Below are positions 15,745 to 23,139 of a stretch of DNA of 64,000 nt, one piece after another (the first letter of the stretch is position 1; each line of letters starts with the position of its first letter). The translations under genes and the position numbers were made by a program. The notes beneath the pieces are model-generated. The model did not search any database. It worked only from the letters and a program-made list of their open reading frames with translations, and was not told the origin of the DNA. Source of the stretch: Ilumatobacteraceae bacterium (lineage in GTDB: Bacteria; Actinomycetota; Acidimicrobiia; Acidimicrobiales; Ilumatobacteraceae); contig JAWLFC010000003.1 of assembly GCA_041685755.1 (NCBI GenBank), forward strand, positions 26 to 64,025. The letters run 5' to 3'.

Positions 15745-16167
15745 TCAGCCGCAACAGCCGGCCGACGAGCCGGTGCTGGCGGACACGACGGTGTTGAGGA
15801 GCTGCTCGGCGTCGCCACGCTTGACGTACCACTCCCAGCGGTTGCCGTCGGGGGCGTGCACCCAGGTCTCGGTCTTCTCCGCATAGCAGCAGATCGTGTC
15901 GTCGACGCCGGTCGTCGCCAGCCCGGAGTCGGCGAGACGGGCCTCGGCGGCCACGACGTCGGCGGCGGTCTCGGTCTCGACACCGAGATGGTTGATCGTC
16001 CCCGGCTCACCGTCGCCTTCGAACAGCACGAGCTTGAGCGGGGGGTTCTCGATCGAGAAGTTGGCGTAGCCGGGCCTGGTCTTGGCCGGTTCGGTACCGA
16101 ACATCTTGCTGTAGAAATCGATCGCCTGATCGAGGTCGTCGACGTTGAGGGCGAGCTGAAGGCGCAT
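15745..16167 (-). CDS. ArsI/CadI family glyoxalase-fold metalloenzyme (candidate C-As lyase)
   Basis: 140 aa from ATG 16167. VOC fold start MRLQLALNVDDLDQAIDFY, HLGVE, and a vicinal Cys pair in DDTICCYAEKTETWV as in ArsI. Divergent from arsR. Confidence 0.8.
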   Translation of the reverse strand: MRLQLALNVDDLDQAIDFYSKMFGTEPAKTRPGYANFSIENPPLKLVLFEGDGEPGTINHLGVETETAADVVAAEARLADSGLATTGVDDTICCYAEKTETWVHAPDGNRWEWYVKRGDAEQLLNTVVSASTGSSAGCCG

Positions 16168-16214
16168 GGCTGATCTCCTGTGGATGATGGGGGGGCTCGA
16201 TCGGAGGGTGATCG

Positions 16215-16265: not shown

Positions 16266-16622
16266 ATGAAGTTCATGAATACGTCGAGCGCCTCCACCGA
16301 GCCCGAATCCTGCTGTGCGCCGCTGCTGCGAGCTGCGCTCGACGAGGAACAGGCGGTCGACCTGGCCGAGGTACTCAAGGCGCTCGCCGATCCGGTGCGA
16401 CTGCGACTCGTCTCGATCATCGGGACGGCCGAAGCGGGAGAAGTGTGCACCTGCGACCTGCCGGCGCTGGTCGATCGCACGCAACCCACGGTCAGCCATC
16501 ACCTGTCGTTGCTGGTGAAGGCGGGCGTGCTCGAGCGAGAGCAACGCGGCAAGTGGGCGTGGTTCCGCCTCCGCCGGGAGCGGCTGGCCGCCGTCGGTGA
16601 CGCCCTGGTGAACACCGGGTGA
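16266..16622 (+). CDS. arsR: ArsR/SmtB family metalloregulator
   Basis: Motifs LADPVRLRLVSII, VCTCDL (As(III)-site-like CxC) and TVSHHLSLLVKAGVL. Extra N-terminal vicinal Cys pair (ESCCAP). Confidence 0.9.
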   Translation: MKFMNTSSASTEPESCCAPLLRAALDEEQAVDLAEVLKALADPVRLRLVSIIGTAEAGEVCTCDLPALVDRTQPTVSHHLSLLVKAGVLEREQRGKWAWFRLRRERLAAVGDALVNTG

Positions 16623-16675: not shown

Positions 16676-17320
16676 ATGGACTCGATCGCCCGACGCGCAG
16701 CGATACACGCCGCACTCGGCGAGCCGGCGCGGTTGGCGATCGTGGACGACCTCGCGGCCAGCGATCGGTCGCCGACGGAGCTCGCCGCCCGGCTCTCGAT
16801 GCCGACCAACCTGCTCGCCCACCACCTCGACGTCCTCGAAGGTGTCGGACTGATCGAGCGATTCGTGTCGGCGGGCGACCGCCGCCGTCGCTACGTCCGA
16901 CTCCTGCGGGCGCCGCTCACCCGGCTCGGCGTGGCCACGGCGCCTCCCGCGGGACAGGTGTTGTTCGTCTGCAGCCACAACTCCGCCCGCTCGCAACTGG
17001 CAGCAGCGCTGTGGGCAGCTCGCACCGGCGGGCTGGCGACGTCCGCCGGCACGCACCCCGCCGATCGCGTCCACCCCGGAGCGGTCGCTGCGGCGTCGCG
17101 CGTCGGGCTCGATCTCGGCAGCGCCGAGCCCCGCACGCTCGATGCCGACGAGCACGCCGATCTCGTCGTGACCGTGTGCGACCAGGCGCACGAGGAACTC
17201 GATCCCGAACCGGGTTGGTGGCACTGGTCGCTGCCCGACCCGGTCGAGGACGGCCGCGCCGCGGCGTTCGACGCCGTGATCACCGAACTCGACGACCGCA
17301 TCCGCGCGGTTGCGAACTGA
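16676..17320 (+). CDS. ArsR-type HTH domain fused to LMW-PTP-type arsenate reductase domain
   Basis: N-terminal LGEPARLAIVDDL...LLAHHLDVLEGVGLIER (wHTH). C-terminal VLFVCSHNSARSQLAAAL (CX5R P-loop) and VVTVCDQA. Confidence 0.8.
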   Translation: MDSIARRAAIHAALGEPARLAIVDDLAASDRSPTELAARLSMPTNLLAHHLDVLEGVGLIERFVSAGDRRRRYVRLLRAPLTRLGVATAPPAGQVLFVCSHNSARSQLAAALWAARTGGLATSAGTHPADRVHPGAVAAASRVGLDLGSAEPRTLDADEHADLVVTVCDQAHEELDPEPGWWHWSLPDPVEDGRAAAFDAVITELDDRIRAVAN

Positions 17321-17344: not shown

Positions 17345-18007
17345 ATGACCGACGATCGGGTCGAACTCACCACCGAAGAGATCATGTTGATCCGCCAAGG
17401 TGCGGAGCGGCTGCGCCACCAGTTCGAGGGCACGTTCAACGTGGAGACCATCGAGCGGTACATGCTCGACTCCCAGGAGCTGCTGCAGGCAAAGGCGAAG
17501 TTCACGAAGTGGCTGCCGCTACTGATCGAGCGCCTCACCCGCGACCGGCTGCGCGCGCTGACGCGCCTCGAAAACGGCAGCAACGCCAAGCCGGCGGTGT
17601 TGTTCCTGTGCGTCCACAACGCCGGACGCTCGCAGATGGGTGCCGGCTGGTTGCACCACCTCGCCGGTGACACCGTCGACGTGTTCTCCGGTGGCACCGA
17701 TCCTGGCATCGAACTGAACGCTGCTGCGGTCGCGGCGATGGCCGAGGTCGGCATCGACATCGGTGGCGAGCTGCCGCAACCGTGGACCGACGAGATCGCT
17801 CGTGCCGTGGACGTGATCGTCTCCATGGGGTGCGGCGACGCCTGTCCGATCTACCCGGGCAAGCGCTACGAGGAGTGGGACCTGGGCAGCCCGTCCGGCC
17901 AGCCGATCGAGGTGGTACGCGAGATCCGCGACGACGTCCGCACCCGAGTCGAAGCACTGATCGCCTCGCTCGGACTCGGCGTCACGATCCCGGAACCGCA
18001 ACGGTGA
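17345..18007 (+). CDS. arsC: arsenate reductase (LMW-PTP/thioredoxin-coupled type) with ~80-aa N-terminal helical extension
   Basis: Motifs [15 protein letters not shown] (CX5R) and SMGCGDACP (the Cys pair of Trx-coupled ArsC). N-terminal extension [21 protein letters not shown].... Confidence 0.85.
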
Positions 18008-19056
18008 GCACCAGGATCGGCATCAACGGGTTCGGCCGCATCGGTCGGCTGGTCGTGCGCGCCCTGCGCGAGCAGTCCGGTCTCGAGCTCGTGCACGTGA
18101 ACGAACCGTTCGCCGACGTCGCAACGGCGGCGCATCTGTTGGAGTTCGACACGGTCCACGGGCGCTACGCCGGCTCGGTCTCCGTCGGCGACGGCCAGCT
18201 GGAGATCGACGGAGCCGCGGTCGGCTACTCCTCGATCGCGTCGCCGGGCGACGTGCCGTGGCAGGCCGCCGACGTCGACATCGTGTTGGAGTGCTCCGGC
18301 AAGTTCCGGACCTCCGAGTTGTTGGCGCCGTACTTCGATCGTGGCGTGCGCACGGTGATCGTCGCCGCCCCGGTCAAGGACGACGACGTGCTCAACATCG
18401 TGATGGGCTGCAACGACCACCTCTACGACCCCGCCGTCCATCACGTCGTCACCGCTGCATCGTGCACCACCAACTGCCTGGCCCCGGTCGTCAAGGTCCT
18501 CCACGAGCAGATCGGGATCGAGCGCGGCGTCATCACCACGATCCACGACGCCACCAACACCCAGGTCGTCGTCGACGCACCGCACAAGGACCTGCGACGG
18601 GCGCGCTCGGCCCTCAACTCACTGATCCCGACCTCGACCGGATCGGCCACGGCGATCACCATGATCTATCCCGAGCTGACCGGGAAGTTGAACGGTGTCG
18701 CCGTGCGAGTTCCGTTGCTGAACGCGTCGCTCACCGACGCGGTGTTCTCGATGAACCGCGACGTCACCGTCGAGGAGGTCAACGCGCTGCTGCGCGACGC
18801 CGCCGACGGCGAACTGAAGGGGATCCTGGGCTTCGAGGATCGGCCGCTGGTGTCGGCCGACTACACCAACGACACCCGGTCCGGCATCGTCGACGGCCCG
18901 TCGACGATGGTCGTCGACGACCGCATGGTCAAGGTCCTGATCTGGTACGACAACGAGTACGGCTACGCCTTCCGCATGGCCGACCTCACCGCGATGATCG
19001 CCGGCACGATGGCCGACGGTGTCGGGTCCGGATCGACCGACGAGGGCCCGACGTGA
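18004..19056 (+). CDS. gap: glyceraldehyde-3-phosphate dehydrogenase (ArsJ-associated type)
   Basis: Motifs [11 protein letters not shown] and [10 protein letters not shown] (catalytic Cys). GTG 18004 overlaps the arsC stop, and the gene's own stop overlaps the arsJ start. Confidence 0.9.
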
Positions 19057-20315
19057 AACTGCGGAACTACGTCCTGGTCACCGCCGGCTACTGGGCGTTC
19101 ACGCTCACCGACGGCGCGCTGCGCATGCTCGTGCTGCTGTACTTCCACGAGCTCGGCTACTCGCCGGTGGCGATCGCCTTCCTGTTCCTCCTCTACGAGT
19201 TCATGGGGATCGTCACCAACCTCGTCGGTGGCTGGGTCGGCGCCCGCAGCGGCCTGAACCGCACGCTCCTGGTCGGGCTCGGCATCCAGGTGGTCGCCCT
19301 CGTCGGGCTCACCTTCCACGACCCGAGCTGGATCGAGTGGATCTCGGTCGCGTTCGTGATGGGCCTCCAGGCGCTGTCCGGGGTCGCCAAGGACCTCACC
19401 AAGATGAGCTCCAAGAGCGCCGTCAAGTTCATGGCCGGCGAGGGCGCCCTCTTCCGTCTCGTCGCCATCCTCACCGGCTCGAAGAACGCTCTCAAGGGCT
19501 TCGGCTTCTTCGTCGGTGCGGTGCTGCTGTCGTGGATCGGCTACGACGCCGCTCTGTGGTCGATGGCGGCGATGATCACCGTCGTACTCGTCGCCGTCGG
19601 CGTGCTCCTCGACGAGGACATCGGTCGGGCGAAGGTGAAGCCCGAGCTGCGGTCGATCCTGTCGAAGTCGGCGGCGATCAACCGGTTGTCGGCCGCCCGC
19701 TTCTTCCTGTTCGCGTCGCGCGACATCTGGTTCGTCGTTGCGCTGCCGATCTTCCTGACCGACGTGTTCGACTGGTCGTTCGAGCAGGTCGGCGGGTTCC
19801 TCGCCGCCTGGTTGATCGGATACGGCATCGTGCAGTCGTTCGCTCCACGCCTGTTGCGCCGCTCGATCGCCAGCGTCGACGCCGAGATCGGGGCCGCTCG
19901 CACCTGGGCGTTCGTGCTCGCTGTCGTCTCGGCGGCGATGGCGATCGGCGTGGCGCTCGACGTCGCGGTCACCGCAGTGGTCGTCGGCGGGTTGATCGTG
20001 TTCGGCGTGGTGTTCGCGATCAACTCGTCGCTGCACTCGTACCTGATCCTGGCCTACTCCCGGGGCGACGACGTGTCGCTCGACGTCGGCTTCTACTATT
20101 CCGCCAATGCCACCGGACGCCTGGTCGGCACGCTCCTCTCGGGCGTGCTCTACCTGTGGGGTGGCCTCGAGCTGGCGCTGTGGGGATCAGCCGCCTTCGT
20201 CGCCGTCACCTGGCTGCTGACCCTGCGCTTGCCGGCGCTCACCACCGACGACGAACAGCGCGAGGACACCTCGACCACACGCCGACCTGCCGGAACGCCG
20301 ACGTCGGACCGGTGA
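19053..20315 (+). CDS. arsJ: MFS transporter ArsJ (organoarsenical/1-arseno-3-phosphoglycerate efflux)
   Basis: Last 420 aa of ORF 18258..20315. Starts [38 protein letters not shown] and is polytopic. Translationally coupled to GAPDH (GTGA). Confidence 0.85.
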
Positions 20316-20331
20316 CACCCTCGATCGTCGG

Positions 20332-20637
20332 TCAGCCTGCCACGAGGTCGACGCCCAGCACCACGAGCCGACGCCACCGCGCGAACCCGTCGGTGTCGAT
20401 CGTCCAGGAACCGTCGGCTCCGACCACTCCCGGATCCACGTAGACGACGGTGCCCGACACCTCGAACCGCTCCACGCCGTCGAGCAGTTCCGGCGCACCG
20501 GGCTCGGCGACCGGCACGGCCGCGGCACCGCCGCAGCACCCGTGACGACGGCTCGGGCGGACGTGTACCGGTCGACCGGCGAGGAGCGCTCGGGCCGACG
20601 CAGTCAGCTGTGGTGGGGTCACCGCAGCGTCACTCAT
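20332..20637 (-). CDS. 101-aa conserved-looking hypothetical protein with vicinal Cys-Cys motif
   Basis: Last 101 aa of ORF 20332..20883: MSDAAVTPPQLTASARALLAGRPVHVRPSRRHGCCGGAAAVPV...TVVYVDPG...WTIDTDGFARWRRLVVLG. Its ATG overlaps the acr3 stop (ATGA). GC-rich third positions are consistent with coding. Confidence 0.6.
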   Translation of the reverse strand: MSDAAVTPPQLTASARALLAGRPVHVRPSRRHGCCGGAAAVPVAEPGAPELLDGVERFEVSGTVVYVDPGVVGADGSWTIDTDGFARWRRLVVLGVDLVAG

Positions 20638-21764
20638 GTCGCCGGTCGCGGTCGGGTCGCCGGTGTGTTCGGGAACTGGTGTCGGGTCCGGTTGGCGTAG
20701 CGCACCAGGGCCAGCATCAGCGGAACCTCCACCAGCACGCCGACCACGGTGGCCAGTGCCGCACCGGACTGCAGGCCGAACAGGGCGATCGCCGCGGCCA
20801 CGGCGAGCTCGAAGAAGTTGCTGGCGCCGATCAGCGCGCCGGGTGCGGCGACGGCGTGGCGGATCTTCCAGACATGCATCCACCGATACGCCACGGCGAA
20901 GATGAGCACGGTCTGGATCGTCAGCGGAACCGCGATCAACACGATGTGGAACGGGTTGTCGAGGATCACTTCACCCTGGAACGCGAAGAGCAGGACGAGC
21001 GTCAGGATCAACCCGGTCGGCGTCACCACCCCGATGCGCTTCATGAACACGTCGTCGAACCACACCGAGCCCTTGCGCCGCAGCAGCCACAGCCGGGTCG
21101 TGTAGCCGGCCGCCAATGGGATCACGATGTACAGCACGACCGACAGTGCCACGGTGTCCCACGGCACGGCGATGTCGGACACCCCGAGCAGGAACACGAC
21201 GATCGGAGCGAATGCCACCAGCATGATCAGGTCGTTGAGCGAGACCTGGACCAGCGTGTAGGCCGGATCACCGCGGACGAGGAGGCTCCACACGAAGACC
21301 ATGGCGGTACAGGGAGCCGCACCCAGCAGGATGGCGCCGGCCAGGTATTCGCGTGCCAGCGCCTCCTCGATGAACGGCGAGAACACCACCAGCAGGAAGA
21401 ACCAGGCGATCGCGAACATCGTGAACGGCTTGATCAGCCAGTTCACGACGGTCGTGACGACGAGGCCCCGCGGTTCGCGTCGCACCCCCACGATCGACCC
21501 GAAGTCGATCTGGACCATCATCGGGAAGATCATCGCCCAGATCAGGATCGCCACCGGGACCGACACGTTGGCGTACTCGTAACGCGACAACGTGTCGGGA
21601 ATCGCCGGGAGCCACTGCCCGAGCGCGACGCCCACCACGATCGCCAACGCCACCCACAGCGTGAGGTACCGGCCGAAGACGCCGAGGGCTGCGGCGGTGC
21701 TCGGCTCGGCGGCCGTACCACTGGTCGTCACGGCGTCGAGGTCGGATCCATCGCCGGGCGACAT
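20634..21764 (-). CDS. acr3: ACR3 family arsenite efflux transporter
   Basis: Last 376 aa of ORF 20634..22577. Motifs FGRYLTLWVALAIVVG, MIFPMMVQIDF and GAAPCTAMVFVWS (conserved Cys in the TM4 context). Confidence 0.9.
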   Translation of the reverse strand: MSPGDGSDLDAVTTSGTAAEPSTAAALGVFGRYLTLWVALAIVVGVALGQWLPAIPDTLSRYEYANVSVPVAILIWAMIFPMMVQIDFGSIVGVRREPRGLVVTTVVNWLIKPFTMFAIAWFFLLVVFSPFIEEALAREYLAGAILLGAAPCTAMVFVWSLLVRGDPAYTLVQVSLNDLIMLVAFAPIVVFLLGVSDIAVPWDTVALSVVLYIVIPLAAGYTTRLWLLRRKGSVWFDDVFMKRIGVVTPTGLILTLVLLFAFQGEVILDNPFHIVLIAVPLTIQTVLIFAVAYRWMHVWKIRHAVAAPGALIGASNFFELAVAAAIALFGLQSGAALATVVGVLVEVPLMLALVRYANRTRHQFPNTPATRPRPAT

Positions 21765-21924
21765 GATCCCAGTCTGGCGGACGCTGCCGGACGAACCTCG
21801 GCGTACTTCACACAAACCCCCAACGGGTAGCTGTCGGGCACGTTCCGGCTCATCGACGAGTGCTCGACGCTGCAAGACTCGCGGCATCGGACCGTCGTGC
21901 GACGGTCGAGAGAGGGGGACCGAG

Positions 21925-23139
21925 ATGGCATACGGGGGCGAACACGTCGAGATGGCGCCGGTGGAGAACTGGCTGACCGACTGGGACTGGCTCGACGACC
22001 AGTGGGGCGAGAACGCCATCGACATCTGGAACTCGGTGCGCGAGCAGTGCCCCGTGGCCACCACGGAGCGGTACGGACGAGCGTTCATGCCCGTGACGAT
22101 GGAGAGCGTCGCCCAGGTGGCCAACGACACCGAGCACTTCTCCTCGATCTGGGTCAACGTCGGTCGGCCCGACGCGCCCCGACGCCCCGCCCCGCCGATC
22201 ACCTCCGACCCGCCCGACCACCACGGCCACCGGCGATTGCTCCTCCCGGCGTTCAGCCCGAAGAACGTCGCCCCGCTCGAAGCCGACCTGCGAGCGTTCT
22301 GCCGCAGTCTGATCGCGGAGCTCGACGGTGCCGACACCGCCGACGCCGCCGCGCAGTTCGCGCAGCACATCCCGGTGCACGGGATCTGCAAGCTGACCGG
22401 ACTGCCCGAGGAGGACGCCGATCTCTTCCGTGACTGGATCCACCGCAACTTCCAGCTGGCGCCACGCGACAACGCCGTGCGAATCGCGGTCGCCACCGAG
22501 ATGCGCGAATACGTCGACGGGCTGCTGAACGAACGCCTCGCCGACCCCCGCGACGACATGCTGACCACGATCGCCAATGCCGAGATCGACGGCGCACCGG
22601 TCGACTGGGACCTGAAGGTCGGCTACATCAACCTGCTGATCATCGCCGGGATCGACACGACCTGGAGTGCGATCGGCTCCGGCCTCTGGCACTTCGCTCA
22701 GCACCCCGAACAGGTCGCCCGCCTCGTCGCTGTCGACGACGACGACCTGCTGTGGAACACCGCCACCGAGGAGGTGCTGCGGTACTACGCCCCGGTGACG
22801 ATGGCCCGCAAGGTGATCGGCGAGACCGAGGTGGGCGGCTGCCCGGTCCACCCCGGCGACCAGATGCTGCTCACCTTCCCCGCCGCCAACCACGACCCTG
22901 CCGCCTTCGAACGCGCCGACGAGTTCGACATGGATCGCCTCAACAACCGCCACGTCGCGTTCGGGCTCGGCATCCACCGCTGCGTCGGCTCGAACCTGGC
23001 GCGTCTCGAGTGCACGGTCGCCTTCCAGGAATGGCTCCGTGCCTTTCCGAACTACACGCTCGACACCAGCCGTACGACCACCTGGGCCAACGGCCAGGTC
23101 CGCGGCCCCCGCAACATCCCGGTCCTGCTCGACCGCTGA
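21925..23139 (+). CDS. cytochrome P450
   Basis: Heme-binding loop FGLGIHRCVGSNLA, I-helix AGIDTT and an EEVLR (ExxR) motif. ATG 21925 is preceded by AGAGGGGGA. Confidence 0.9.
   Translation: MAYGGEHVEMAPVENWLTDWDWLDDQWGENAIDIWNSVREQCPVATTERYGRAFMPVTMESVAQVANDTEHFSSIWVNVGRPDAPRRPAPPITSDPPDHHGHRRLLLPAFSPKNVAPLEADLRAFCRSLIAELDGADTADAAAQFAQHIPVHGICKLTGLPEEDADLFRDWIHRNFQLAPRDNAVRIAVATEMREYVDGLLNERLADPRDDMLTTIANAEIDGAPVDWDLKVGYINLLIIAGIDTTWSAIGSGLWHFAQHPEQVARLVAVDDDDLLWNTATEEVLRYYAPVTMARKVIGETEVGGCPVHPGDQMLLTFPAANHDPAAFERADEFDMDRLNNRHVAFGLGIHRCVGSNLARLECTVAFQEWLRAFPNYTLDTSRTTTWANGQVRGPRNIPVLLDR

What the first reader, a model, noticed from the sequence alone, without database searches (positions are those of the whole stretch)
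20332..20637. 101-aa Cys-Cys protein translationally coupled (ATGA) to the arsenite pump Acr3
The start codon of this small ORF overlaps the acr3 stop, so it should be made together with the pump. Its only cysteines are the vicinal pair in RRHGCCGGAA. The alternating beta-like pattern afterwards (VERFEVSGTVVYVDPG...WTIDTDG...RRLVVLG) loosely resembles small HesB/IscA-like or DUF779-like thiol proteins, and it does not resemble ArsD. Vicinal thiols are the classical As(III) ligand. An Acr3-dedicated metallochaperone or sensor of this type has not, to my knowledge, been described.
Basis: partly seen in the sequence, partly recalled or inferred. Interest (0 to 1): 0.65.

Follow-up and report, generated by a model that had tools for sequence, protein, structure and literature searches.

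The report
Small Cys-Cys partner of arsenite pump
A real 101-residue protein with one exposed Cys-Cys pair is made together with the arsenite efflux pump Acr3 in bacteria from at least four phyla; it belongs to a named but uncharacterised family and is a good candidate for a new accessory component of arsenic resistance.

Summary
Window 20332-20637 (minus strand) encodes a 101-aa protein whose ATG overlaps the acr3 stop (ATGA) and whose only cysteines are C34-C35.

It is not an orphan. It passes the NCBIfam model NF041239, "CC/Se motif family (seleno)protein" (56.8 bits, cutoff 40). Its homologues carry Pfam PF28096 (CC_Se_fam). No function is recorded and no paper was found.

In 80 related genomic loci from Actinomycetota, Pseudomonadota, Gemmatimonadota and Planctomycetota:
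- All 80 lie among ars genes.
- 75 have acr3 upstream on the same strand.
- In 61 the gap from the acr3 stop to the start codon is -4 to +4 nt.

The AlphaFold model (pLDDT 91.6) has an IscA/SufA (HesB-like) fold. The CC pair sits on a hairpin tip at the position of IscA Cys35. The C-terminal CxC of Fe-S carriers is missing.

The ars-linked clade has extra invariant residues (R27, S29, R31, H32, A39, A44, E45). Distant relatives lack them, are not ars-linked, and include a selenocysteine form.

The positional orthologue in Thioalkalivibrio jannaschii is induced by arsenite together with ACR3.

Best reading, by inference: a cytosolic dithiol protein that binds trivalent arsenic and hands it to Acr3. 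A vicinal-dithiol arsenate reductase is the main rival.

The parts
20332..20637 (-). 101-aa CC/Se-motif family protein (ars-linked clade), stop codon included
   Evidence: Translation. NF041239 at 56.8 bits against cutoff 40. Homologues carry PF28096 CC_Se_fam. AF2 model pLDDT 91.6.
20634..20637 (-). ATGA start/stop overlap between acr3 and the CC gene (translational coupling)
   Evidence: Read from the sequence. The same -4 overlap occurs in 29 of 75 loci, -1 in 5, and +2 to +4 in 27. There is no clear Shine-Dalgarno sequence upstream in the window.
20533..20538 (-). Codons of the vicinal cysteines C34-C35 (TGC TGC)
   Evidence: Read from the sequence. C34 and C35 are 100% conserved in the ars clade and 93% and 90% in distant relatives. 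The pair lies on the hairpin tip between strands 24-32 and 38-46. C34 aligns to IscA Cys35.
20503..20559 (-). Extended ars-clade signature R27-x-S29-x-R31-H32-G-C-C-G-G-x-A39-x3-V43-A44-E45
   Evidence: These residues are 92-100% conserved in 79 ars-linked sequences. R27, S29, R31, H32, A39, A44 and E45 are not conserved in 61 distant relatives.
20634..21764 (-). acr3 arsenite efflux permease (start at ATG 21764 inferred)
   Evidence: TIGR00832 at 391.9 bits, Pfam SBF. ATG read. 73-93% identical to the Acr3 of the related loci.
19053..20315 (+). arsJ (organoarsenical efflux MFS), convergent with the CC gene; 16 nt lie between the two stops
   Evidence: NF033734 at 560 bits.
18004..19056 (+). 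ArsJ-associated GAPDH
   Evidence: NF033735 at 534.7 bits. GTGA overlaps at both ends.
17345..18007 (+). LMW-PTP-type arsenate reductase with an N-terminal three-helix-bundle domain
   Evidence: PF01451 plus PF21234, and NF046112.
16676..17320 (+). ArsR(HTH_20)-LMW-PTP fusion
16266..16622 (+). ArsR/SmtB regulator with an N-terminal CC pair
   Evidence: NF033788 at 77.8 bits. Sequence.
15745..16170 (-). ArsI/CadI family metalloenzyme
   Evidence: NF041414 at 168.7 bits against cutoff 116.

Best explanation
The ORF encodes a small cytosolic protein of the CC/Se-motif family, in a clade specialised as an accessory component of ars operons and above all of the Acr3 arsenite pump. It is made in step with Acr3 by termination-reinitiation at the ATGA overlap.

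It adopts an IscA/SufA-like beta fold. A rigid hairpin presents the G-C-C-G-G tip. This tip sits at the position of the first cluster-ligand cysteine of A-type Fe-S carriers, but the C-terminal CxC is absent.

Proposed mechanism (inferred, not shown):
1. The vicinal dithiol, helped by the invariant R27/R31/H32/E45 patch, captures trivalent arsenic from the cytosol or from low-molecular-weight thiol adducts.
2. A third sulfur ligand comes from a second protomer, or from the conserved transmembrane cysteine of Acr3.
3. The metalloid is passed to Acr3, raising efflux efficiency at low As(III).

This would do for Acr3 what ArsD does for ArsA, with an unrelated fold.
For: Shown:
- Real gene and family membership.
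- Acr3 lies directly upstream on the same strand in 75 of 80 loci from Acidimicrobiia, Nitriliruptoraceae, Ectothiorhodospiraceae/Thioalkalivibrio, Halomonas/Vreelandella, Wenzhouxiangella, Rhodovibrio, Rhodocyclaceae, Gemmatimonadota and Phycisphaeraceae. In 61 the gap is -4 to +4 nt.
- Of the other five loci, four still place the gene after ArsP or ArsH inside ars clusters (L059, L069, L075, L078). In the fifth, L037, the gene is cut by the contig end, so its upstream side cannot be read.
- Some loci show only Acr3+CC among the ars genes probed (L004, L008, L016).
- More distant members with E between 1e-9 and 1e-13 also follow Acr3: P0104, P0109, P0116.
- Acr3 and CC distance matrices correlate: Mantel r=0.77, 0 of 999 permutations.
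- The ars clade has an invariant patch around the CC pair while the rest of the protein diverges to 31-50% identity. The partner Acr3 stays 73-93% identical. This fits a conserved docking or transfer surface.
- Fold: AF2 pLDDT 91.6, pTM 0.83. The top five Foldseek PDB hits, and nine of the top ten, are IscA/SufA-fold proteins: SufA 2d2a (prob 1.00, TM 0.52), IscA 1r94, 1s98 and 1x0g, HI1723, AQ_1857 and DsrR. hhalign against E. coli IscA gives 83.6% probability, with C34 on IscA Cys35.
- Expression: in Tv. jannaschii ALM2 the hypothetical gene between ACR3 and uspA (F816_RS0102070) rises by 2.75 (expression value, apparently log2 fold change, p=3e-10) at 5 mM As(III), together with ACR3 (PMC6620896). 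The identical arsR-glyoxalase-Acr3-CC-Usp order in other Thioalkalivibrio genomes identifies that gene as the CC protein.

Established knowledge (mine): vicinal Cys pairs are As(III)/MAs(III) ligands in ArsD (C12-C13-C18), AfArsR (C95-C96-C102), ArsI (C96-C97) and ArsP (C65-C66).
Against: - There are no binding, structural or genetic data.
- One protomer offers only two thiols, whereas inorganic As(III) usually takes three sulfur ligands. A dimer or a partner cysteine has to be assumed.
- Known As(III) sites (ArsD, ArsR, ArsA) do not use Arg/His. The invariant R27/R31/H32 patch looks more like an oxyanion site or a catalytic site.
- The wider family contains a selenocysteine form, with TGA in place of CC. 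Sec/Cys exchange usually marks redox catalysis.
- Distant family members are not ars-linked, so the fold's ancestral job is something else.
- Most Acr3 pumps work without such a partner (B. subtilis, C. glutamicum, yeast; my knowledge).
- A. ehrlichii carries arsD and arsA in the same cluster as ACR3 and this hypothetical gene. The role is therefore not a simple replacement of ArsD.
Confidence: 0.4

Rival explanations
1. It is a new type of arsenate reductase, or another arsenic redox enzyme. The R27/R31/H32 patch binds the arsenate oxyanion. C34 attacks it, and C35 resolves the adduct into a strained vicinal disulfide. As(OH)3 is then released next to Acr3, and thioredoxin, glutaredoxin or mycoredoxin recycles the protein.
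For: - Invariant Arg-x-Ser-x-Arg-His lies immediately before the CC pair only in the ars-linked clade.
- The family has a selenocysteine form, and HesB-like selenoproteins are classed with redox-active Cys/Sec families (PMC1794560).
- Several full-length loci show Acr3+CC with no ArsC within 6 kb (L008, L054, L056, L068).
- Reductase-pump coupling is precedented by Acr3-ArsC fusions (my knowledge).
- An exposed G-C-C-G tip resembles the redox-active GCUG and SCCS tails of thioredoxin reductases (my knowledge).
Against: - 43 of 80 loci, and the window itself, already carry one or two LMW-PTP ArsC genes, often directly upstream of acr3.
- There is no similarity to any ArsC family.
- Vicinal disulfides are strained and rare as catalytic intermediates.
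- Whole genomes were not examined, so 'no ArsC nearby' does not mean 'no ArsC'.
Confidence: 0.2
2. It binds trivalent arsenicals as a cytosolic buffer or scavenger, possibly preferring two-coordinate organoarsenicals such as MAs(III). It has no physical hand-off to Acr3 and is co-expressed only because both are needed at the same time.
For: - Two-cysteine vicinal sites are typical of MAs(III)-selective proteins (ArsI, ArsP, MAs(III)-selective ArsR; my knowledge).
- In a few Halomonas/Vreelandella loci the gene follows ArsP or ArsH rather than Acr3.
- ArsI, ArsH, ArsP and ArsJ are frequent neighbours.
Against: - The start/stop coupling to acr3 is extremely tight and conserved.
- The two proteins are co-inherited.
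- A stoichiometric buffer would need far higher expression than a pump partner.
Confidence: 0.15
3. It is a thiol-redox guardian or regulator of the pump. It keeps the essential Acr3 cysteine reduced or free of adducts, or gates pump activity in response to As(III).
For: - Stoichiometric co-translation.
- An invariant surface facing a highly conserved partner.
- Sec/Cys exchange in the family points to redox chemistry.
Against: - No precedent exists for such a partner of BART-family transporters.
- The gene can sit after ArsP or ArsH instead of Acr3.
Confidence: 0.1
4. It is an A-type-like Fe-S carrier or repair factor that protects Fe-S proteins from arsenite damage.
For: - IscA/SufA-like fold.
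- Some databases label homologues 'Fe-S cluster assembly iron-binding protein IscA'.
Against: - Two of the three cluster-ligand cysteines (the C-terminal CxC) are absent, and no third conserved Cys exists.
- The window protein has no PF01521 hit. Only 7 of 108 relatives give weak hits, the best at E 0.007.
- No isc or suf genes are nearby.
Confidence: 0.05

Closest known systems
CC/Se motif family (seleno)protein (NCBIfam NF041239 'Moor_selen_rel'; Pfam PF28096 CC_Se_fam)
   Same: The window protein scores above the curated cutoff. It has the same length (about 95-105 aa), the same G-C-C-G-G motif and the same conserved Pro49. It is a member.
   Different: The family has no assigned function. 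The window protein belongs to a sub-clade with extra invariant residues (R27, S29, R31, H32, A39, A44, E45) and obligate ars/Acr3 linkage. The distant members sampled lack both.
ArsD, the As(III) metallochaperone of the ArsA ATPase
   Same: Both are small cytosolic proteins encoded in ars operons next to the efflux machinery. ArsD uses a vicinal Cys pair (C12-C13) as part of its As(III) site. The proposed role, handing As(III) to a pump, is analogous.
   Different: There is no sequence similarity and the fold differs (IscA-like beta fold against the thioredoxin fold of ArsD). No third cysteine is present. The partner would be a secondary transporter (Acr3), not an ATPase. ArsD and the CC-type gene coexist in Alkalilimnicola ehrlichii.
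A-type Fe-S carriers IscA/SufA/ErpA (HesB-like fold, PF01521), the IscA-like DsrR, and HesB-like selenoproteins
   Same: They are the best structural matches. The profile alignment puts C34 on IscA Cys35. HesB-like proteins also occur in Sec and Cys forms (PMC1794560).
   Different: The C-terminal C-x-C ligands are missing. PF01521 does not recognise the protein. There is a vicinal second Cys instead. The genomic context is arsenic resistance, not Fe-S biogenesis.
Acr3-ArsC fusions (for example M. tuberculosis Rv2643) and arsC-acr3 operons
   Same: In both, a small thiol protein is physically or translationally coupled to Acr3 so that its product or ligand reaches the pump directly.
   Different: ArsC is an LMW-PTP or Grx-type reductase with a known mechanism. 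The CC protein is unrelated in sequence and fold.

Membership tests
CC/Se motif family (NF041239 / PF28096) | Score above NCBIfam's curated cutoff over nearly the full model | tested here: met
   56.8 bits against cutoff 40; residues 21-95 on model positions 17-90 of 91.
CC/Se motif family (NF041239 / PF28096) | Vicinal CC (or Sec) motif in a protein of about 90-110 aa | tested here: met
   G33-C34-C35-G36-G37 in a 101-aa protein. C34 and C35 are at least 90% conserved in 108 family members. The Sec form was seen in L086/L087.
CC/Se motif family (NF041239 / PF28096) | Pfam PF28096 hit | tested here: inconclusive
   The model is absent from the local Pfam copy. All close homologues carry a precomputed PF28096 hit.
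A-type Fe-S carrier (IscA/SufA/HesB, PF01521) | PF01521 hit above the gathering score | tested here: not met
   The window protein has no hit at E<=1. 7 of 108 relatives give sub-threshold hits, the best at E 0.0074.
A-type Fe-S carrier (IscA/SufA/HesB, PF01521) | Three conserved cluster-ligand cysteines (Cys35, Cys99, Cys101 in E. coli IscA) | tested here: not met
   Only the first position is kept (C34 aligns to Cys35). There is no C-terminal CxC and no third cysteine.
A-type Fe-S carrier (IscA/SufA/HesB, PF01521) | HesB/IscA fold | tested here: met
   Foldseek top hits are SufA, IscA, HI1723, AQ_1857 and DsrR, with TM 0.45-0.54 and prob up to 1.00. hhalign probability is 83.6%.
ArsD metallochaperone (PF06953) | ArsD sequence family and thioredoxin-like fold | tested here: not met
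   No ArsD hit in Pfam or NCBIfam at E<=1. The model has an IscA-like fold.
ArsD metallochaperone (PF06953) | Three-cysteine As(III) site (C12, C13, C18) | tested here: not met
   Only a vicinal pair is present.
ArsD metallochaperone (PF06953) | Binds As(III) and transfers it to its pump partner | not testable with these tools
   This needs biochemistry.
Arsenate reductase (ArsC: LMW-PTP, Grx-type) | Membership of PF01451 or PF03960, with a CX5R P-loop or a Cys12/Arg triad | tested here: not met
   No hits. The motif is R-H-G-C-C-G-G.
ars operon component (operational definition) | Conserved co-location and co-orientation with ars genes in unrelated lineages | tested here: met
   80 of 80 loci lie in ars context and 75 of 80 have acr3 upstream on the same strand.
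ars operon component (operational definition) | Induction by arsenic | tested here: inconclusive
   Hp1 F816_RS0102070 of Tv. jannaschii is induced by As(III). Its identity with the CC protein rests on synteny with L089-L092, not on its sequence.

The most novel reading that the evidence does not exclude
The CC protein and Acr3 form a conserved two-component arsenite efflux unit. In it, a soluble IscA-fold dithiol protein docks on the cytosolic face of a secondary transporter and delivers As(III) to it, or reduces As(V) for it. That would be the first dedicated chaperone or partner known for Acr3, and a new use of the HesB/IscA fold. It would deserve its own ars gene name.
Probability: 0.45. 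Interest if true: 0.75.

Novelty: new variant of a known kind. Interest (0 to 1): 0.62.

Why it matters
Acr3 is the most widespread arsenite efflux pump in bacteria, fungi and non-flowering plants. No protein partner is known for it. ArsD/ArsA is the only established arsenic chaperone-pump pair.

A conserved, co-translated dithiol partner would explain how some Acr3 pumps acquire As(III) from thiol-bound cytosolic pools. It would add a gene to arsenic-resistance annotation; homologues are now labelled 'hypothetical', 'IscA' or 'CC/Se motif'. It could also improve engineered arsenic efflux or biosensing.

It would give the first functional handle on the uncharacterised CC/Se-motif family, and show an IscA-like scaffold re-used for metalloid handling.

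Tried and rejected
- Pfam and NCBIfam scans for ArsD, ArsC, thioredoxin-like or HMA domains found none.
- A sequence search of the PDB with the family profile gave only a spurious bL25m hit at E 0.22.
- tblastn against 72,556 plasmids found no match, so there is no sign of a plasmid-borne cassette in PLSDB.
- Eight literature searches found no paper on this family or on an Acr3 partner. The terms were CC/Se motif; acr3+HesB; acr3+selenoprotein; acr3+metallochaperone; acr3+IscA; acr3+vicinal cysteine; HesB-like+selenoprotein; and novel ars gene/cysteine pair. They did yield the Thioalkalivibrio transcriptome, and one search gave the paper on HesB-like selenoproteins.
- I looked for a Sec form inside the ars-linked clade. 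Short 'proteins' that start just after the CC motif (P0096, P0155) are gene-calling truncations of normal TGC-TGC genes.
- I looked for natural Acr3-CC fusions. P0135 is a frameshifted assembly fragment, not a fusion.
- I considered modelling an Acr3-CC complex or a CC dimer. The structure tool returns no coordinates or interface scores, so the result could not have been read, and I did not run it.
- The idea that the ORF is a GC-driven artefact was rejected on cross-phylum protein conservation.

Full report
**1. The observation**

The finding's coordinates describe a minus-strand ORF that runs from 20637 down to 20332. It translates to 101 residues:

MSDAAVTPPQLTASARALLAGRPVHVRPSRRHGCCGGAAAVPVAEPGAPELLDGVERFEVSGTVVYVDPGVVGADGSWTIDTDGFARWRRLVVLGVDLVAG.

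- Plus-strand bases 20634-20637 read TCAT. On the coding strand the ATG therefore overlaps the upstream gene's TGA as ATGA.
- The upstream gene is a clear Acr3 arsenite permease: TIGR00832 at 391.9 bits against a cutoff of 282.8, plus Pfam SBF. Its likely start is ATG 21764.
- C34 and C35 are the only cysteines.
- The window is very GC-rich, and long meaningless ORFs overlap on all frames. Reality of the gene therefore had to come from homologues. It does, as shown below.

**2. Surroundings**

The gene lies in a compact arsenic island.

| Gene | Coordinates | Strand |
|---|---|---|
| ArsI/CadI | 15745-16170 | - |
| ArsR | 16266-16622 | + |
| ArsR-LMW-PTP fusion | 16676-17320 | + |
| LMW-PTP ArsC with an N-terminal three-helix-bundle domain | 17345-18007 | + |
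| ArsJ-associated GAPDH | 18004-19056 | + |
| ArsJ | 19053-20315 | + |
| acr3 followed by the CC gene (convergent with arsJ) | 21764-20332 | - |

Three junctions in the island are 4-nt start/stop overlaps.

**3. Family**

- The protein passes NCBIfam NF041239, "CC/Se motif family (seleno)protein" (model name Moor_selen_rel): 56.8 bits against cutoff 40.
- Its homologues carry the recent Pfam entry PF28096, CC_Se_fam. So the family has a name but no function.
- An exhaustive HMM search of 1.84 billion representative proteins found only 133 clusters at E<=1e-3. The family is small.
- Across 108 members, the only nearly invariant positions are C34, C35 and P49.
- One distant member from biogas metagenomes has an in-frame TGA in place of the CC pair (R-G-TGA-G-G; L086 and L087). 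This is the selenocysteine form that the family name refers to.

**4. Neighbourhood survey**

A scan of one genome per GTDB species returned 102 relatives, of which I examined 80 loci. They come from Ilumatobacteraceae and other Acidimicrobiia, Nitriliruptoraceae, Ectothiorhodospiraceae and Thioalkalivibrio, Halomonas and Vreelandella, Wenzhouxiangella, Aquisalimonas, Halofilum, Rhodovibrio, Rhodocyclaceae, Gemmatimonadota and Phycisphaeraceae. Many are from soda-lake or arsenic-rich salt-flat samples.

tblastn with the window's ars proteins and with neighbours taken from the loci themselves gave these results:

- All 80 loci lie among ars genes.
- 75 have acr3 upstream on the same strand.

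| Distance from acr3 stop to CC start | Number of loci |
|---|---|
| -4 nt (ATGA/GTGA/TTGA) | 29 |
| -1 nt | 5 |
| +2 to +4 nt | 27 |

- In the exceptions among the 75, an ArsH, an FMN reductase, a Grx-type ArsC or an ArsP-like permease is inserted between acr3 and the CC gene.
- Of the five loci with no acr3 found upstream, four have the CC gene following ArsP or ArsH inside an ars cluster. In the fifth (L037) the CC gene is cut by the contig end.
- Some loci show only Acr3+CC among the ars genes probed (L004, L008, L016).
- A tandem Usp gene follows CC in 31 loci.
- More distant members also follow Acr3: P0104, P0109 and P0116, with E between 1e-13 and 1e-9.
- Three still more distant, low-GC members do not: L081, L082-84 and L085.

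The ars linkage is therefore a property of one clade, roughly the top third of the family.

Acr3 and CC distance matrices are strongly correlated (Mantel r=0.77, 0 of 999 permutations). Acr3 is 73-93% identical to the window's, and CC 31-81%. The two genes travel together as a cassette, and CC evolves about 2.7 times faster.

**5. Clade signature**

I aligned 79 ars-linked sequences against 61 distant relatives.

- The ars clade has R27 (99%), S29 (95%), R31 (100%), H32 (96%), G-C-C-G-G (100%), A39 (100%), V43, A44 (99%) and E45 (94%).
- None of R27, S29, R31, H32, A39, A44 or E45 is conserved in the distant relatives.

A specialised surface has therefore been built around the CC pair in the ars-linked proteins.

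**6. Structure**

- AlphaFold2 with the 108-sequence alignment gives a confident model: mean pLDDT 91.6, pTM 0.83. It has one short helix and eight strands. G33-C34-C35-G36-G37 forms the tip of the hairpin between strands 24-32 and 38-46.
- In the Foldseek search of the PDB, the top five hits and nine of the top ten are HesB/IscA-fold proteins: SufA 2d2a (E 3.9e-3, prob 1.00, TM 0.52), IscA 1r94, 1s98 and 1x0g, HI1723, AQ_1857 and DsrR. The sixth hit (9a4q_B, ODPA-YNER) is unrelated.
- Profile-to-sequence hhalign against E. coli IscA gives 83.6% probability. I verified the IscA sequence against 1s98. The alignment places C34 on IscA Cys35.
- Weak Pfam hits of family members go to Fe-S_biosyn (7 of 108) and DUF779 (4 of 108).
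- The C-terminal C-x-C that completes the Fe-S site of A-type carriers is absent, and no third cysteine is conserved. The protein is a fold relative of that family, not a member.

**7. Expression evidence from a homologue**

In the Thioalkalivibrio transcriptome study (PMC6620896), the ars cluster of Tv. jannaschii ALM2 is arsR, Hp2 (glyoxalase), ACR3, Hp1, uspA. Expression values at 5 mM As(III), apparently log2 fold changes:

| Gene | Value | p |
|---|---|---|
| Hp1 (F816_RS0102070) | 2.75 | 3.3e-10 |
| ACR3 | 1.96 | - |
| uspA | 3.03 | - |

Cultured Thioalkalivibrio genomes carrying the CC protein show exactly arsR-glyoxalase-Acr3-CC(4-nt overlap)-Usp. The flanking genes are also the same as in ALM2: glycosyl transferase, rhodanese, Crp, desaturase, CsbD, PAS, BON and DUF3309. 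Hp1 is therefore, by synteny, the CC protein.

Alkalilimnicola ehrlichii has the same hypothetical gene (Mlg_2708) between ACR3 and uspA, in a cluster that also contains arsA and arsD.

**8. Mechanism**

Shown:
- A real, conserved, arsenite-responsive gene (the last point by synteny).
- It is co-translated with Acr3.
- It has an IscA-like fold that presents an exposed vicinal dithiol, framed by clade-specific Arg/His/Glu residues.

Inferred, as my preferred reading (about 0.4): it captures trivalent arsenic with the dithiol and passes it to Acr3. A third ligand would come from a second protomer or from the conserved Acr3 transmembrane cysteine, which the window's Acr3 retains in LLGAAPCTAMV. 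This is ArsD-like in role but unrelated in fold and partner.

Arguments for this reading:
- The tight stoichiometric coupling.
- Co-inheritance of the two genes.
- The contrast between an invariant patch on CC and an almost invariant partner.
- The recurrent use of vicinal cysteines for As(III)/MAs(III) in ArsD, ArsR, ArsI and ArsP (established knowledge).

Main rival (about 0.2): a vicinal-dithiol arsenate reductase. It is favoured by the Arg-Ser-Arg-His patch, by the Sec form in the family, and by loci with no ArsC nearby. It is weakened by the frequent presence of ArsC in the same operon.

Lesser rivals: a free arsenical buffer, perhaps preferring organoarsenicals; a redox guardian of the pump; and an Fe-S carrier, which is unlikely because the ligands are missing.

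**9. Novelty**

- The family is already named in NCBIfam and Pfam, so the protein is not unknown as a sequence family.
- Eight full-text searches found no paper that describes the family, its link to Acr3, or any Acr3 partner. These searches cover open-access literature only.
- The only trace is the unexamined 'Hp' in the Thioalkalivibrio paper.
- I rate it a new variant of a known kind: a pump-associated arsenic thiol protein. It is of clear interest to arsenic-resistance specialists and directly testable.

Noticed in passing
window 18004-18007, 19053-19056, 20634-20637: Three gene junctions in the ars island are 4-nt start/stop overlaps: ArsC/GAPDH (GTGA), GAPDH/ArsJ (GTGA) and acr3/CC (ATGA). 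This suggests extensive translational coupling across the island.
   Followed up: partly
window 15745-16170 (-): The ArsI/CadI-family protein has the expected internal vicinal pair (TICCY). It also ends in ...SSAGCCG, a second G-C-C-G motif at the extreme C-terminus. This recalls the CC protein's tip and the tails of thioredoxin reductases.
   Followed up: no
window 17345-18007 (+) and 16676-17320 (+): There are two LMW-PTP arsenate-reductase-like genes in tandem. One carries an N-terminal three-helix-bundle dimerisation domain (PF21234/NF046112). The other is fused to an ArsR-type HTH_20 domain.
   Followed up: partly
window 16266-16622 (+): The ArsR regulator has an N-terminal vicinal pair (ESCCAP). 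Its best match is the Rv2640c-type ArsR model, but below the cutoff (97 bits against 155).
   Followed up: no
L012, L014, L015, L017, L019-L023, L089-L094 and others (31 of 80 loci): A tandem universal-stress-protein (Usp) gene of about 270-300 aa directly follows the CC gene, giving a recurrent Acr3-CC-Usp module. In Tv. jannaschii this uspA is the most arsenite-induced gene of the cluster. The module is absent from the window.
   Followed up: partly
L086 563-847 and L087 73-357: A distant family member from biogas-fermenter metagenomes has an in-frame TGA exactly where the CC pair lies (R-G-TGA-G-G). This is presumably selenocysteine, and a single Sec replaces two Cys. I did not look for a SECIS element.
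   Followed up: partly
L097 135-461; proteins P0096, P0098, P0118, P0124, P0155: Gene callers often start these ORFs at an internal Met just after the CC motif, which cuts the active-site hairpin off. Database entries of 60-73 aa are truncations, not a short isoform.
   Followed up: yes
L069 473-3429: In Vreelandella vilamensis the ArsP-CC pair lies downstream of a 4Fe-4S subunit, an NrfD-like membrane subunit and a chaperone-like gene. These resemble a molybdopterin oxidoreductase (Arr/Arx/Psr-type) cluster.
   Followed up: no
window 21765-21930: A roughly 165-bp divergent intergenic region separates acr3 from a cytochrome P450 gene (about 21930-23139, +). No ArsR gene lies next to acr3 on this side, so how the acr3-CC pair is regulated in this organism is unclear.
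   Followed up: no
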